DNA of 5,058 nucleotides from a virus (taxonomy: Duplodnaviria; Heunggongvirae; Uroviricota; Caudoviricetes), in the IMG/VR virus record IMGVR_UViG_2698536458_000007, one strand, 5' to 3'. Positions 1 to 5,058 of this stretch are shown piece by piece. The notes beneath the pieces were generated by a model. The model worked only from the letters and a program-made list of their open reading frames with translations, did not search any database and was not told the origin of the DNA. Each line of letters opens with the position of its first letter. Positions within the stretch are counted from its first letter, which is position 1. Made by a program: the position numbers and the translations under genes.

Positions 1-32
1 AACAGATGTCTGGAAATATAGGGGCAAATCCA
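1..32 (+). mobile_element. IS2 right-end terminal inverted repeat, partial (last 32 bp; element body would lie upstream of the window)
   Basis: Bases 1-32 (aacagatgtctggaaatataggggcaaatcca) match my recollection of the IS2 right end (...TAACAGATGTCTGGAAATATAGGGGCAAATCCA). The reverse complement of the same sequence sits at 5026-5058. Not verified by search. Confidence 0.75.
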
Positions 33-52
33 CTTACGCTTATCTTCTCTTA

Positions 53-134
53 TTTTGAAATACAGATTCGTCAGATAAGTCAGAAGCCCCAGATTTTGAA
101 ATACAGATTTGTCAGATAAGTCAGAAGCCCCAGA
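53..134. repeat. Tandem direct repeat, 2 x 41 bp (53-93 and 94-134), one mismatch (c/t at 69 vs 110)
   Basis: Unit ttttgaaatacagatt[c/t]gtcagataagtcagaagccccaga read directly; each unit contains the sub-repeat gtcaga-taa-gtcaga. Confidence 0.95.
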
Positions 135-171
135 AGCAGACTTCCCAGCACACCAATCGCAGCCCACTGTG

Positions 172-361
172 NNNNNNNNNNNNNNNNNNNNNNNNNNNNN
201 NNNNNNNNNNNNNNNNNNNNNNNNNNNNNNNNNNNNNNNNNNNNNNNNNNNNNNNNNNNNNNNNNNNNNNNNNNNNNNNNNNNNNNNNNNNNNNNNNNNN
301 NNNNNNNNNNNNNNNNNNNNNNNNNNNNNNNNNNNNNNNNNNNNNNNNNNNNNNNNNNNNN
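172..361. other. Run of 190 N (assembly/scaffold gap or masked sequence)
   Basis: Contiguous n characters from 172 to 361. Confidence 1.
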
Positions 362-479
362 CTGATGGCCTGAATCACCTTTACCAATATTGTATGAAAA
401 AACACGCACGACTAATTGACAATAATTTTCATTTCCATTAAAAAAGATCGCGTAGCATTCTTAATTCATGAGGAACTTT

Positions 480-546
480 ACCCGCCAGCAATCTGAGTAG
501 CGAAAGCTGTTCATCCCCAATGTTTTTGCTGGCGGGTCCTTTTTTC
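480..546 (+). terminator. Candidate intrinsic terminator or structured RNA 3' end: perfect 12-bp inverted repeat with 34-nt loop, followed by T6
   Basis: acccgccagcaa (480-491) is the exact reverse complement of ttgctggcgggt (526-537); T tract at 541-546. The loop contains a small gaaa-capped stem (agc-gaaa-gct). On the minus strand the repeat is not followed by a T tract. Confidence 0.4.
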
Positions 547-552
547 TACGGT

Positions 553-590
553 CCTCCTCCCCGGAGGGGGGCATTTCATTATTTTTCTAA
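553..590 (+). terminator. Second GC-rich hairpin (cctcc-tcccc-ggagg) followed by T-rich stretch; possible tandem terminator
   Basis: cctcc (553-557) pairs with ggagg (563-567); downstream gcatttcattatttttc is T-rich but interrupted. Confidence 0.25.
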
Positions 591-936
591 TCGTTACTGG
601 TGAGAAGGCGGAAGAAAAAGCCAGTTCTTCGCCCCTAAATAACAGCATGATTCCAGTCCATGCAAAATCTGATTTCCAGCTCACACATACCGAGCGCTGT
701 ACAAAAAACCGCCAGCCAAGGCAGTTAAGAGTGTGTTCCCGGGGTTTGCTTAGAATATTTTGTAAGTTGTCCGAAGAGATATTTACAACACCAGAATGAT
801 GAATCATCAGTCCCCTGCCAGAGGTTCACTACGTAACCTGACCGACAATGCACCATTCTGGTGCTGAAAAAAGAGCACTGGAACTGCAACAAAACAACAT
901 CACAGAACAGGAGATGGTAAGGAGTCAGACATTCCC

Positions 937-950
937 ACACAATATTGTGT
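937..950. repeat. Perfect 14-bp palindrome ACACAATATTGTGT
   Basis: Read directly; lies about 35 bp beyond the 3' end of the last tRNA of the array on the minus strand. Confidence 0.9.
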
Positions 951-2487: not shown

Positions 2488-2494
2488 CGTGAGG

Positions 2495-2524
2495 AATATA
2501 GCCCCGGACAATGTGTCTGGTCAA
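2495..2524 (-). promoter_or_regulatory. PR'-like late promoter (TTGACC-N18-TATATT) beginning 4 nt after the Q stop codon
   Basis: Minus-strand -35 TTGACC (plus 2519-2524) and -10 TATATT (plus 2495-2500). In lambdoid phages the Q-dependent late promoter lies immediately downstream of Q. Confidence 0.45.
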
Positions 2525-2528
2525 GCAC

Positions 2529-2915
2529 CTACATAATTCGTTCTACGTATCTGTCCATCTCCAGCCGGATATCAAGCATCATCAACATGCCATCAATAAC
2601 CCCTTCCGCTTTCTGCAGGCGCTTGCCAATACAGGTATCCGAACACCCATGTTTCCGTGCCAGACTCATAAAAGTCATTCCACCTACGTAATAATCCACC
2701 AGCAAATCGTGCAAATCCTGATTTTTCTTGTTCAACCGGGCCATACAGCCACAAATTATCATTGCATCATCATCAGAACACTGAGGGCGTGATTTCACTT
2801 TCGACGGAATTAACCCTTTAAAACCAGCAGCGATCGACGCCCAGGATACATCTTCATGAGTGTTTGCAGCCCAAGCCCCCCACCGTTCCATAACCTGCTG
2901 AATATCACGCGCCAT
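2529..2915 (-). CDS. Late-gene antitermination protein Q (phage-82/QuuD-type family)
   Basis: Start at ATG 2915 ([23 protein letters not shown]...) with AGGTGA 6 nt upstream; the 5'-most ATG at 2936 lacks a good RBS. N-terminus and [16 protein letters not shown] / [16 protein letters not shown] segments resemble E. coli DLP12 QuuD as I recall it. Sits between rusA and the late promoter, the canonical Q position. Confidence 0.75.
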
Positions 2916-3276
2916 CGTTATCACCTGTGATTTCATAAATCTTCACGCCCAGTCGCCCACCAGGAACGAGCTGACCGCGCACAATATTGATTTCATCAAA
3001 CTGCTCGTCGTCTATGAGTAGTCCGGCATGCGTCAGCGCATCCAGTGGTGCTTTCAGGATATTGTCCAGGTCACGACGGCGCTTATCCGGTGGCTCTGCA
3101 ATAATCTTTATCGCCAGCCTTCCGGACAGGTTTAATTTCAGCCGCTGCTGGCGAACAATTAGCGTCACATCACGGCGATAACGCTCACCAACTTTTGATA
3201 CAAAATATGTGCTGCCACGACGTCGCCAGTAAGTATTCACCGTCGGCGGATAAGGTAAAATAAACTCATGGCGCAT
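2905..3276 (-). CDS. rusA: Crossover junction endodeoxyribonuclease RusA (Holliday junction resolvase)
   Basis: 123 aa; [34 protein letters not shown] and [11 protein letters not shown] correspond to RusA hallmarks ([45 protein letters not shown]), including the catalytic Asp cluster. Start ATG overlaps the upstream stop (TGATG); the 3' end overlaps the Q start by 11 nt. Confidence 0.9.
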
Positions 3277-3518
3277 CAGCGCAGCACCTCCTGCACCATT
3301 TTTTCAAACTTTCCAACTTTGGTTTCCAGCTCTGCCACACAATCAACGAGCTCATCCACCGCTTTTTGTGCGCGATGTTTCGCCTGCATCAGTTCCCTGA
3401 GCGCTGGCACCATATCCCGACGAATGGCATCTTTTGTTACACCTGTTTTTTCCAGTTGTTCCGCCTGTCGCAACATTTCCTGCGCGTGTTTACGCAATTG
3501 TTCAGAGGTAAAAGTCAT
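3276..3518 (-). CDS. Hypothetical 80-aa charged protein of the nin-like region (start at ATG 3518, MTFTSEQL...)
   Basis: Co-oriented ORF filling the gap between helicase and rusA; starts 11 nt after the helicase stop and its stop overlaps the rusA start. No family recognised; no strong RBS. The ORF-track start at 3533 is a TTG. Confidence 0.5.
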   Translation of the reverse strand: MTFTSEQLRKHAQEMLRQAEQLEKTGVTKDAIRRDMVPALRELMQAKHRAQKAVDELVDCVAELETKVGKFEKMVQEVLR

Positions 3519-3529
3519 TGTCTGGTTGT

Positions 3530-4921
3530 TCAAAAGAAACGCTCCATCTTACTGCTGTCGGTACGTGTATTGCTGTATCTGCGCGGCTGGGGCTGCCGCA
3601 TTGGGGTGGAAAGAACCTGTGCGCTTTCCTGGTCCACAGGCAGAAAATGTCCGTTATAAAAACGCCGGTAAATCGTCCCCAGAGAACCGTTACGTTGTTT
3701 CGTGATATTAATTTCTGCTATGCCTGTAGCCTGTGTATCCGGGTTGTACACTTCATCCCTGTAAAGCATCAGAATGATGTCTGCATCCGCCTCTATTTCT
3801 CCGGAATTTTTCAGGTCTGAGTTCATGGGACGTTTATTGGGTCTGGACTCCACACCGCGGGAGAGCTGGCTCAGCGCAATCAACGGAAAACCACCGGATT
3901 TTGCCAGGCCTTTAAGCCCCTTTGAGATTTCACCCACGGCAAGGTCATGACGCCCCGTGGTTCGGGTTTTTATCAGCCCGAGATAATCAACCACCACCAG
4001 CGCCGTTTCCGGATGTTTAATCAGATGGTGTTTCGTTGTTGCGCATATCTCATCAATGGTCAGGTTCGCCTGGTCCACCATCCAGATATTGCGCCCGGTC
4101 ATCCGCCCCACCCCTTGTGAGAAACGCGCCCAGTCTTCATCTTCAAAGTGAGCCACAGATTTCAGGCGTGATACTGGCATCCCTCCAGCCGCAGACACCA
4201 TACGTTCACCAATCTGGATGTTCGCCATCTCCATGGTGAACAGAAGCACACCATGCCCCTGCTCAGTCACCTTGTCGATGATGTCCAGCGCAAGTTCGGT
4301 TTTCCCCATCGAAGGACGGGCGGCAATGAATACCAGGTCTCCGGGCTCCATACCGCCTGTTTTTGCGTCCAGTTCATCAATACCGGTCATCAACGTCCTG
4401 GATTTCTCCAGCCCCTGATTCCGGCATTCAACACGCTCAACCACTTCCGGAAGCACATCATCAATATGTACCGGCTGAATGACGCCCTTTCCTGTCGACA
4501 GTGTGACCATCATGTTCTGCGCATCCTTCAGGGCATCTTCAGCTGCTTCACAGGTATGCGCATCACGTAATTTCTGCAGCGCCTCATTCAGTGTTTTTTC
4601 TGCATCGCGCAGTGCGGCATTGCGCCGCAACGCTGCAACATAGTGCTCCAGTGAAGACTTCACCCAGGTTTTACGCCCGGTATCAGTAATCACCGGGGCA
4701 AGTTCCGGCATCTCATTACACAACAGCACGGGGTCAATCACTCCTGAAACACGGGCCTGTCTGCAGATGCCTGTGTAGATATCCCGATACGCTCGTACAG
4801 AAAAAATGTCCGCCGGTAGTGTGATCAGAATATCCATCACTTCATGATCTGCCCCACGCAGAAAGAATGCGCCAATGACAGCGCCTTCCAGGTCATCATT
4901 ACGCCAGACTGGTGTTGTCAT
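3530..4921 (-). CDS. DnaB-family replicative DNA helicase (lambdoid/P22 gene-12-like)
   Basis: 463 aa from ATG 4921 (MTTPVWRND...), GAGG about 8 nt upstream; the track start at 4942 is TTG. Walker A GDLVFIAARPSMGKT, and DnaB-like motifs VVVDYLGLI, ALSQLSRGVESR, ADADIILMLYRDEVY. Confidence 0.88.
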   Translation of the reverse strand: MTTPVWRNDDLEGAVIGAFFLRGADHEVMDILITLPADIFSVRAYRDIYTGICRQARVSGVIDPVLLCNEMPELAPVITDTGRKTWVKSSLEHYVAALRRNAALRDAEKTLNEALQKLRDAHTCEAAEDALKDAQNMMVTLSTGKGVIQPVHIDDVLPEVVERVECRNQGLEKSRTLMTGIDELDAKTGGMEPGDLVFIAARPSMGKTELALDIIDKVTEQGHGVLLFTMEMANIQIGERMVSAAGGMPVSRLKSVAHFEDEDWARFSQGVGRMTGRNIWMVDQANLTIDEICATTKHHLIKHPETALVVVDYLGLIKTRTTGRHDLAVGEISKGLKGLAKSGGFPLIALSQLSRGVESRPNKRPMNSDLKNSGEIEADADIILMLYRDEVYNPDTQATGIAEINITKQRNGSLGTIYRRFYNGHFLPVDQESAQVLSTPMRQPQPRRYSNTRTDSSKMERFF

Positions 4922-5025
4922 GCAGCCACACCTCTGATACAAGAACGGTAGCTGGGCCAGTTGAACGACAACCAGTTGCGCCCCCCGTCTGTGATCCTGT
5001 CGGCAATGCGGGGGCTGATGAACGC
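4918..5025 (-). pseudogene. 3'-terminal 35 codons of a truncated upstream gene (candidate replication initiator or helicase loader), cut at the IS2 boundary
   Basis: Open frame from 5025 to TGA at 4920-4918 (...AFISPRIADRITDGGRNWLSFNWPSYRSCIRGVAA*); the stop overlaps the helicase ATG as ATGA. Only 35 codons, so coding status rests on the coupling and gene order. Confidence 0.3.
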
Positions 5026-5058
5026 TGGATTTGCCCCTATATTTCCAGACACCTGTTA
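5026..5058 (-). mobile_element. IS2 right-end terminal inverted repeat, partial, inverted orientation (element body would lie downstream of the window)
   Basis: tggatttgcccctatatttccagacacctgtta is the reverse complement of bases 1-32 with one mismatch (cacctg vs catctg) and matches the IS2 right end as I recall it. Confidence 0.75.

What the first reader, a model, noticed from the sequence alone, without database searches (positions are those of the whole stretch)
1..5058. Window is bracketed by inverted IS2 end fragments of almost identical length
Bases 1-32 and 5026-5058 are reverse complements of each other (one mismatch) and match the IS2 right terminal repeat. Both copies present their right end toward the phage segment. 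The near-equal 32/33-bp lengths suggest either a short-read contig that broke at IS2 copies or a real IS2-bounded segment that could move or be rearranged as a unit. The bases adjacent to the two ends (cttac and aacgc) are not a shared 5-bp target duplication, so this is not a single simple insertion.
Basis: partly seen in the sequence, partly recalled or inferred. Interest (0 to 1): 0.5.

Follow-up and report, generated by a model that had tools for sequence, protein, structure and literature searches.

The report
Draft contig ending in IS2 copies
The window is a short-read draft scaffold of a decayed Shigella sonnei prophage that stops at copies of the common insertion sequence IS2; the two IS2 ends belong to loci about 2.7 Mb apart, so the 5-kb "IS2-bounded unit" is most likely an assembly artefact.

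Summary
Bases 1-32 equal the last 32 nt of E. coli K-12 IS2A. Bases 5026-5058 are the same end inverted, with one mismatch.

The "IS2-bounded unit" is very probably not real. Window 362-5058 is 100% identical to Shigella sonnei chromosomes ("locus A"). In 10 of 10 loci a full 1331-bp IS2 carrying the same C variant truncates a dnaC-like gene at exactly this junction.

In those genomes the holin is intact and is followed by lysozyme and terminase genes. Window 1-93 is instead 100% identical to a second, paralogous holin ("locus B", about 2.7 Mb away in CP044191.1). That copy carries a simple IS2 insertion with a perfect 5-bp target duplication, GTAAG.

A and B share a 747-nt repeat at 98.7% identity. 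The window switches from A-type to B-type bases exactly at a 41-nt tandem duplication (52-133), next to a 190-N run. Two other S. sonnei draft assemblies show the same switch with 31- and 22-nt duplications. None of 30 other loci shows a duplication.

Verdict: known IS2 copies, a contig break at a multicopy repeat, and a false join through a paralogous repeat. This is ordinary and of low interest.

The parts
1..32 (+). Outer 32 nt of the IS2 right inverted repeat (IRR), T variant. The IS2 body would lie to the left of the window.
   Evidence: Identical to the last 32 nt of K-12 IS2A. Window 1-93 is 100% identical to the IS2/holin-B junction in five S. sonnei loci that were aligned, L023, L024, L027, L029 and L031.
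33..92 (-). 3' part of a class II holin gene, paralogue-B type, cut 18 nt before its stop codon. Bases 33-37 (CTTAC) are the target-site copy GTAAG.
   Evidence: B-type bases at window 42 and 69 and an exact junction match to L023-L034. P0019 is the holin-IS2 read-through protein.
52..133 (.). Two 41-nt tandem copies that differ only at the A/B paralogue SNP (69 versus 110). The A-to-B join lies here and is most likely an assembly or gap-closing artefact.
   Evidence: The same join has 31-nt and 22-nt duplications in L033 and L034. The junction is absent from all other loci.
93..171 (-). Middle part of the holin gene, A-type at the single diagnostic base (window 110).
   Evidence: 100% identical to locus A (L003-L012), one mismatch to locus B.
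172..361 (.). Run of 190 N, either a scaffold gap or a mask. It covers the holin start and its upstream region.
   Evidence: The corresponding interval is 157 nt in locus A and 162 nt in locus B.
362..984 (-). Non-coding region between the tRNA cluster and the holin. Bases 362-850 belong to the A/B repeat and are A-type at 696, 802 and 805.
985..1295 (-). Prophage tRNA cluster: Gly(TCC), Thr(TGT), Arg(TCT), and a CAT-anticodon tRNA (Met by ARAGORN; the counterpart in VL40 is annotated Ile).
1485..2048 (-). ORF6N-domain protein, 187 aa.
   Evidence: Gene call and Pfam PF10543 on the identical DNA in L003.
2529..2915 (-). Antiterminator Q, 128 aa.
   Evidence: PF06530 on the identical DNA.
2905..3276 (-). 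RusA Holliday-junction resolvase, 123 aa.
   Evidence: PF05866.
3276..3533 (-). 85-aa ORF with no family assignment.
3530..4921 (-). DnaB-type replicative helicase, 463 aa.
   Evidence: PF03796. The exact protein is listed in 3506 collection blocks, including many S. sonnei chromosomes.
4918..5025 (-). Last 108 nt of a dnaC-like helicase-loader gene, truncated by IS2.
   Evidence: Aligns to the 3' end of the 'ATP-binding protein' gene in E. coli VL40 and other strains.
5026..5058 (-). Outer 33 nt of the IS2 IRR, C variant at 5052. It belongs to a divergent full-length IS2 copy.
   Evidence: The junction string is present in 10 of 10 locus-A loci. The copy there is 1331 bp and 97.6% identical to IS2A.

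Best explanation
The window is a short-read draft contig or scaffold from Shigella sonnei. It covers the replication-to-lysis part of a decayed lambdoid prophage: dnaC', helicase, RusA, Q, ORF6N, four tRNAs and the holin.

Assembly stopped on both sides about one k-mer (32-33 nt) into IS2, a multicopy element in Shigella. The right-hand IS2 is genuinely adjacent. It is a fixed, full-length, slightly divergent IS2 that truncates the dnaC-like gene in all complete genomes examined.

The left-hand IS2 end is genuine sequence from a different locus. It is a simple IS2 insertion, with target duplication GTAAG, in a paralogous holin gene of another prophage remnant. That locus lies about 2.7 Mb away in strain CP044191.1.

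The two loci share a near-identical repeat of about 750 nt. The assembler, scaffolder or gap closer entered this repeat from locus A and left it into locus B. It left an N gap at the entry fork and a 41-nt overlap duplication at the exit fork.

The 5-kb 'IS2-bounded unit' therefore does not exist as such and has no function. Shown: the sequence identities, the junctions, the target duplication, the paralogue SNP pattern, and the variable duplications in other drafts. Inferred: that the join is artefactual, and that k was about 33.
For: - Window 362-5058 is 100% identical to ten S. sonnei loci, including the 33 nt of IS2. The dnaC'|IS2 C-variant junction string is present in 10 of 10.
- In those loci the holin is intact (71 aa) and is followed by lysozyme, lysis, HNH, terminase and, where called, portal genes. 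The intact holin-A 3' string is present in all of them.
- Window 1-93 is 100% identical to locus B. There a 1331-bp IS2 sits in the holin with GTAAG on both sides. The exact junction string is present in all ten loci L023-L032.
- P0019 is the holin-IS2 read-through product. It is listed in 234 blocks, including chromosomes.
- In the single genome CP044191.1, locus A lies at 3.757-3.779 Mb and locus B at 1.069-1.086 Mb.
- The A/B repeat is 747 nt at 98.7% identity and ends at the IS2 site.
- Diagnostic bases: A-type at window 805, 802, 696 and 110; B-type at 69 and 42. The switch falls between the two copies of the 41-nt duplication.
- L033 and L034 are independent draft assemblies. They show an A-type first copy and a B-type second copy with 31- and 22-nt duplications, and they end 40 nt into IS2. 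L033 is visibly chimeric and carries a single N.
- No duplication junction occurs in any other locus.
- The exact frameshifted holin that the duplication predicts is not in the 15-billion-protein collection.
- IS2 is one of five IS expanded in Shigella, and the S. sonnei global collection had 59-bp mean reads (PMC7373316).
- SSPACE and GapFiller are greedy tools that can make false joins and leave N gaps (PMC5320598).
Against: - I could not identify the source assembly or see its reads, so the false join is inferred rather than observed.
- A duplication junction should not arise from a pure de Bruijn graph, so a post-assembly step has to be assumed. The 41-nt length does not equal the k implied by the 32-33-nt IS2 overhangs.
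- Only one diagnostic base (110) marks 93-171 as A-type.
- The N run hides the entry fork, and its length (190) fits neither locus (157 or 162).
- Only about 20 complete or long loci were inspected, so a rare lineage with a real A/B recombinant is not excluded.
Confidence: 0.85

Rival explanations
1. The hybrid is real. In this isolate, homologous recombination or gene conversion between the two roughly 99%-identical holin regions (A and B) placed the IS2-interrupted B end behind the locus-A genes. This could have happened as part of a megabase inversion. It would give a true 5-kb prophage fragment between inverted IS2 copies.
For: The 747-nt repeat at 98.7% identity is an adequate substrate. 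The two loci are in opposite orientation in CP044191.1. Shigella genomes are rich in IS.
Against: Clean homologous exchange does not create a 41-nt tandem duplication at the crossover. The same switch appears with different duplication lengths in other drafts, one of them plainly chimeric. No recombinant was seen among the 35 helicase-bearing and 24 P0019-bearing contigs read.
Confidence: 0.09
2. A new, independent IS2 insertion into the locus-A holin in this isolate, or an IS2-mediated adjacent deletion starting from the inverted IS2 that lies 6.2 kb further downstream in some genomes.
For: IS2 is active and variable between Shigella strains. In 5 of 10 locus-A loci a T-variant IS2 with its IRR facing inward lies at about L003 20986.
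Against: The insertion point, the orientation and both flanking SNPs are identical to the pre-existing locus-B insertion. An independent event would not convert the neighbouring bases to B-type. IS2 transposes by copy-out-paste-in through a minicircle (PMC3299598). By my inference, that route is not expected to give adjacent deletions.
Confidence: 0.03
3. The segment is an IS2 composite transposon that moves as a unit.
For: Two IS2 ends flank the window in inverted orientation.
Against: With both IRRs facing inward, both outer ends would be IRL. [quoted passage not shown] The cargo is a truncated prophage fixed at one chromosomal site. The left flank belongs to another locus. No copy of the unit was found elsewhere.
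Confidence: 0.01

Closest known systems
IS2 (IS3 family), e.g. IS2A of E. coli K-12 and the IS2 copies of Shigella sonnei chromosomes
   Same: The terminal 32-33 nt match the IS2 right end. In related complete genomes the copies are 1331 bp and 97.6-99.2% identical to IS2A, and the gene calls show the two IS2 reading frames (121 and 301 aa, or a 409-aa fusion). The locus-B copy has the canonical 5-bp target duplication.
   Different: Only the IRR tips are present in the window. The locus-A copy has no target duplication and truncated genes on both sides, so it marks a rearrangement or deletion breakpoint.
IS-bounded decayed lambdoid prophage remnants of Shigella (IS expansion and genome degradation, PMC7373316)
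   Same: The window holds a truncated replication gene and a Q-tRNA-lysis module. IS elements (IS1, IS2, IS4, IS3-family and IS110-family) crowd both loci. In at least 5 of 10 genomes locus A really lies between two inverted IS2 copies.
   Different: The real IS2-to-IS2 span at locus A is about 11.1 kb (dnaC' to the portal region), not the 5 kb shown by the window.
Repeat-induced contig breaks and false joins in short-read assemblies that were scaffolded and gap-filled (SSPACE/GapFiller-type pipelines, PMC5320598)
   Same: The contig ends about one k-mer into a multicopy IS. There is an N run. An overlap-sized tandem duplication sits exactly at the switch between paralogue alleles. The same pattern occurs with other duplication lengths in other drafts.
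   Different: The assembler actually used for this window is unknown. The 41-nt duplication does not equal the 32-33 nt overhang.

Membership tests
IS2 (IS3 family) | Terminal inverted repeat sequence (IRR 41 bp, IRL 42 bp) | tested here: met
   32 of 32 and 32 of 33 identity to the outer part of the K-12 IS2A right end. IRR and IRL lengths are from PMC3299598. Only 32-33 of the 41 bp lie in the window.
IS2 (IS3 family) | Full element of about 1.33 kb with two overlapping transposase frames (orfA and orfB) | tested here: met
   Not present in the window itself. At the identical junctions in complete S. sonnei genomes the elements are 1331 bp. Their gene calls are 121 aa plus 301 aa, or a 409-aa fusion, with HTH_Tnp_1 and rve domains.
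IS2 (IS3 family) | 5-bp target-site duplication around a simple insertion | tested here: met
   Left-hand copy (locus B): GTAAG on both sides. Right-hand copy (locus A): GTTGC versus GCGTT, so not met there. That copy sits at a rearrangement breakpoint.
IS-bounded composite transposon | Two IS copies physically flanking one and the same segment in the genome | tested here: not met
   The left end matches locus B and the rest matches locus A. In CP044191.1 these lie about 2.7 Mb apart. In all 10 locus-A loci the holin continues into lysozyme.
IS-bounded composite transposon | Transposition-competent outer ends | not testable with these tools
   From the literature only: both outer ends would be IRL, which lacks donor function, and two-left-end IS2 derivatives give no minicircles (PMC3299598).
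IS-bounded composite transposon | The same unit found at other sites with outer target duplications | tested here: not met
   No E. coli complete genome or phage record covers 80% or more of the window. Neither junction is found in E. coli. There was no hit in the genome-contig scan.
Lambdoid prophage (replication, nin, Q and lysis region) | Collinear gene order: loader, helicase, RusA, Q, tRNAs, holin | tested here: met
   Gene calls and Pfam assignments on identical DNA, plus collinear matches to E. coli prophages and Stx phages.

The most novel reading that the evidence does not exclude
In this isolate the two prophage remnants really recombined within their holin repeat, possibly inverting about 2.7 Mb of chromosome. 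This would have left a 41-bp duplication at the crossover and a genuine 5-kb prophage fragment between inverted IS2 copies. Homologous recombination between those copies could then flip the fragment.
Probability: 0.08. Interest if true: 0.25.

Novelty: already known. Interest (0 to 1): 0.07.

Why it matters
The result has little biological weight. Both IS2 insertions are already present in public Shigella sonnei chromosomes, and IS2 expansion in Shigella is well described.

Its value is as a caution. Inverted IS tips at both ends of a draft contig mainly report where the assembler stopped. Here one tip was also attached through a paralogous repeat, so it does not show an IS-bounded mobile unit. 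A small tandem duplication that coincides with a switch of paralogue-specific bases, next to an N run, is a useful signature of such a false join.

Tried and rejected
- An exact scan of genome contigs for the left junction found nothing, so the source is not among the species-representative genomes.
- Junction-spanning megablast against 5,426 complete E. coli genomes found neither junction. The hits covered the phage side or the IS2 side separately.
- The best E. coli and phage matches cover at most 60% of the window, as a mosaic of lambdoid modules.
- I guessed the frameshifted holin that the 41-nt duplication predicts (63 aa and 60 aa versions). Neither is in the protein collection.
- P0024, a 40-nt duplication variant named 'lysis protein S [Shigella sonnei]', has no gene position on record.
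- I considered a real tandem duplication followed by a point mutation. I rejected it because the differing base is exactly the A/B paralogue SNP and other drafts carry different duplication lengths.
- I considered an adjacent deletion from the downstream inverted IS2. I rejected it because the flank is B-type and identical to the locus-B insertion.
- I tried to derive the 41-nt length from k-1 overlaps with k = 33 or 41. The numbers do not fit a simple de Bruijn model, so the exact software step remains unknown.
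Full report
**1. Observation**

The window ends are an inverted repeat. Arms 1-32 and 5026-5057 are 32 nt long and 97% complementary.

The IS2 right-end pattern occurs only at these two places, with none expected by chance.

I compared the ends with the annotated IS2A of E. coli K-12 (NC_000913.3 381260-382590):
- Window 1-32 equals the last 32 nt of IS2A.
- The reverse complement of 5026-5058 equals its last 33 nt, apart from one base (C at 5052).
- Both are the right end (IRR), and both point into the window.

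**2. What lies between the ends**

On the minus strand the window carries these features:
- the last 108 nt of a dnaC-like loader gene (4918-5025);
- a DnaB-type helicase (3530-4921);
- an 85-aa ORF;
- RusA (2905-3276);
- antiterminator Q (2529-2915);
- an ORF6N protein (1485-2048);
- four tRNAs (985-1295);
- a non-coding stretch;
- a run of 190 N (172-361);
- the 3' two-thirds of a class II holin gene (33-171).

This is the replication-to-lysis part of a lambdoid prophage. E. coli genomes and phage records match it only as a mosaic, covering at most 60%. Every match stops at 33 and 5025.

**3. Source and the right-hand junction**

The exact helicase protein is very common in the protein collection. 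The longest contigs carrying it are Shigella sonnei chromosomes, for example HE616528.1 (the organism is taken from the protein names and from my knowledge of that accession).

Window 362-5058 is 100% identical to eight of the ten loci and 99.96% to the other two. The match includes the 33 nt of IS2 with the C variant.

At that junction all ten loci hold a full 1331-bp IS2 that is 97.6% identical to IS2A (32 mismatches). Its flanks are GTTGC and GCGTT, so it has no target duplication. A truncated gene abuts each side.

The right-hand IS2 is therefore real, fixed, and sits at an old rearrangement or deletion breakpoint of the prophage.

**4. The left-hand junction belongs to another locus**

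I call the helicase locus "locus A". There the holin is intact (71 aa) and is followed by lysozyme, lysis, HNH, terminase and portal genes. No IS2 sits in that holin.

A protein search with the holin returned P0019, a 91-aa 'lysis protein S [Shigella sonnei]'. Its tail, WICPYISRHLL..., is the translation of the IS2 IRR.

The ten loci that encode P0019 (L023-L032, "locus B") show a full 1331-bp IS2 inserted 18 nt before the holin stop codon. It has 11 mismatches to IS2A and carries the T variant. GTAAG lies on both sides, and a lysozyme gene follows.

Window 1-93 is 100% identical to this junction.

In the single genome CP044191.1, locus A lies at 3.757-3.779 Mb and locus B at 1.069-1.086 Mb, in opposite orientation.

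**5. The join**

A and B share a 747-nt repeat at 98.7% identity. It ends at the IS2 insertion site and corresponds to window positions of about 33-850.

The diagnostic bases in the window read as follows:

| Window position | Type |
|---|---|
| 805 | A |
| 802 | A |
| 696 | A |
| 110 | A |
| 69 | B |
| 42 | B |

The switch lies between the two copies of a 41-nt tandem duplication (52-92 and 93-133). Their only difference is the A/B SNP itself. The duplication would frameshift the holin.

Two independent S. sonnei draft assemblies show the same arrangement, an A-type first copy followed by a B-type second copy and the IS2 junction:
- CXAQ01000294.1 (L033) has a 31-nt duplication.
- CXCO01000351.1 (L034) has a 22-nt duplication.

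Both end 40 nt into IS2. L033 is plainly chimeric: an intact holin plus lysozyme, a single N, then an IS110-family fragment and the hybrid holin.

The 41-nt junction occurs in none of the other loci held. The protein it predicts is absent from the collection.

A duplication whose length changes from assembly to assembly, always at the paralogue switch, is not biology. It is how a greedy scaffolder or gap closer resolves a repeat with two entries and two exits.

The N run covers the other fork of that repeat. In 8 of 10 locus-B copies an IS110-family element of about 1.45 kb is inserted in exactly that interval.

The published description of one widely used pipeline states that SSPACE and GapFiller are greedy, can make false joins, and leave N gaps (PMC5320598). 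The S. sonnei global collection had 59-bp mean reads (PMC7373316), which fits k values of about 33-41. The link to a particular pipeline is my inference.

**6. Mechanism and function**

No function attaches to the 5-kb 'unit'. The 32-33 nt overhangs are what an assembler with k of about 33 leaves when it runs from unique sequence into a multicopy repeat (inference).

Even if the arrangement were real, it would not be a working composite transposon. With both IRRs facing inward, the outer ends would both be IRL. IRL lacks donor function, and two-left-end IS2 derivatives make no minicircles (PMC3299598). Only homologous recombination between the inverted copies, giving an inversion, would be expected.

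**7. What is real at a larger scale**

In at least 5 of 10 complete genomes, locus A does lie between two inverted IS2 copies with their IRRs facing inward. The span is about 11.1 kb, from dnaC' to the portal region (L003 9896 to 20986). In other genomes an IS4 is inserted near the far end.

This is the usual picture of IS-riddled, decaying prophages in Shigella. IS1, IS2, IS4, IS600 and IS911 have all expanded there (PMC7373316).

**8. Verdict**

The 'contig broke at IS2' reading is correct. The 'IS2-bounded mobile segment' reading is not supported, and the left end is most likely misjoined from a paralogous locus.

Everything involved is already known, and interest is low. The residual uncertainty is about 10-15%. 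It rests on the fact that I could not inspect the reads of the source isolate.

Noticed in passing
window 172-361: The run of 190 N replaces an interval that is 157 nt in locus A and 162 nt in locus B, so it is about 28-33 nt too long for either. It covers the holin start and the point where A and B differ by a 5-nt indel. It may be an estimated scaffold gap, or a mask hiding a second overlap duplication.
   Followed up: partly
L023-L026, L028, L030-L032, about 6480-8000 (interval corresponding to window 172-361): In 8 of 10 locus-B copies an IS110-family element of about 1.45 kb (398-aa DEDD transposase) is inserted about 13 nt upstream of the holin start. L027 and L029 lack it. This is a strain-variable IS site that would add another assembly fork.
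   Followed up: partly
L003 8566-9896 (the IS2 copy whose tip is window 5026-5058): This IS2 copy is divergent: 32 mismatches to K-12 IS2A, against 11 for the locus-B copy and 0 over 407 nt for the downstream copy. It has no 5-bp target duplication (GTTGC versus GCGTT). The 459-aa gene on its left runs into the IRL. It therefore marks a deletion or rearrangement breakpoint.
   Followed up: partly
L003 20986 onward (also L006, L007, L009, L011): A second IS2, inverted, carrying the T variant and identical to IS2A over the 407 nt held, bounds the far end of the locus-A remnant. A real IS2-bracketed prophage remnant of about 11.1 kb therefore exists in at least 5 of 10 genomes. In other genomes an IS4 sits near that end.
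   Followed up: partly
L033 (CXAQ01000294.1), whole contig of 2860 nt: This public draft contig is visibly chimeric. It holds tRNA, an intact holin and lysozyme, then a single N at 1483, then an IS110-family fragment, a hybrid holin with a 31-nt duplication, and 40 nt of IS2.
   Followed up: yes
window 985-1295: Four tightly packed tRNA genes sit between the ORF6N gene and the lysis region: Gly-TCC, Thr-TGT, Arg-TCT and one with a CAT anticodon. The last is called Met by ARAGORN, while its counterpart in VL40 is annotated Ile.
   Followed up: no
window 480-537 and 1386-1407: Two G+C-rich stem-loops were seen. One has perfect 12-nt arms (480-491 and 526-537) followed by a T run on the plus strand. 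The other is AAAAACCCGC...GCGGGTTT, next to the 3' end of the ORF6N gene. Both look like terminators but were not examined.
   Followed up: no
window 33-92 compared with L001, L016 and L019: The B-type holin 3' allele also occurs uninterrupted in the three non-sonnei-type loci fetched (L001 E. coli VL40, L016, L019). The IS2 insertion is therefore the derived state.
   Followed up: partly
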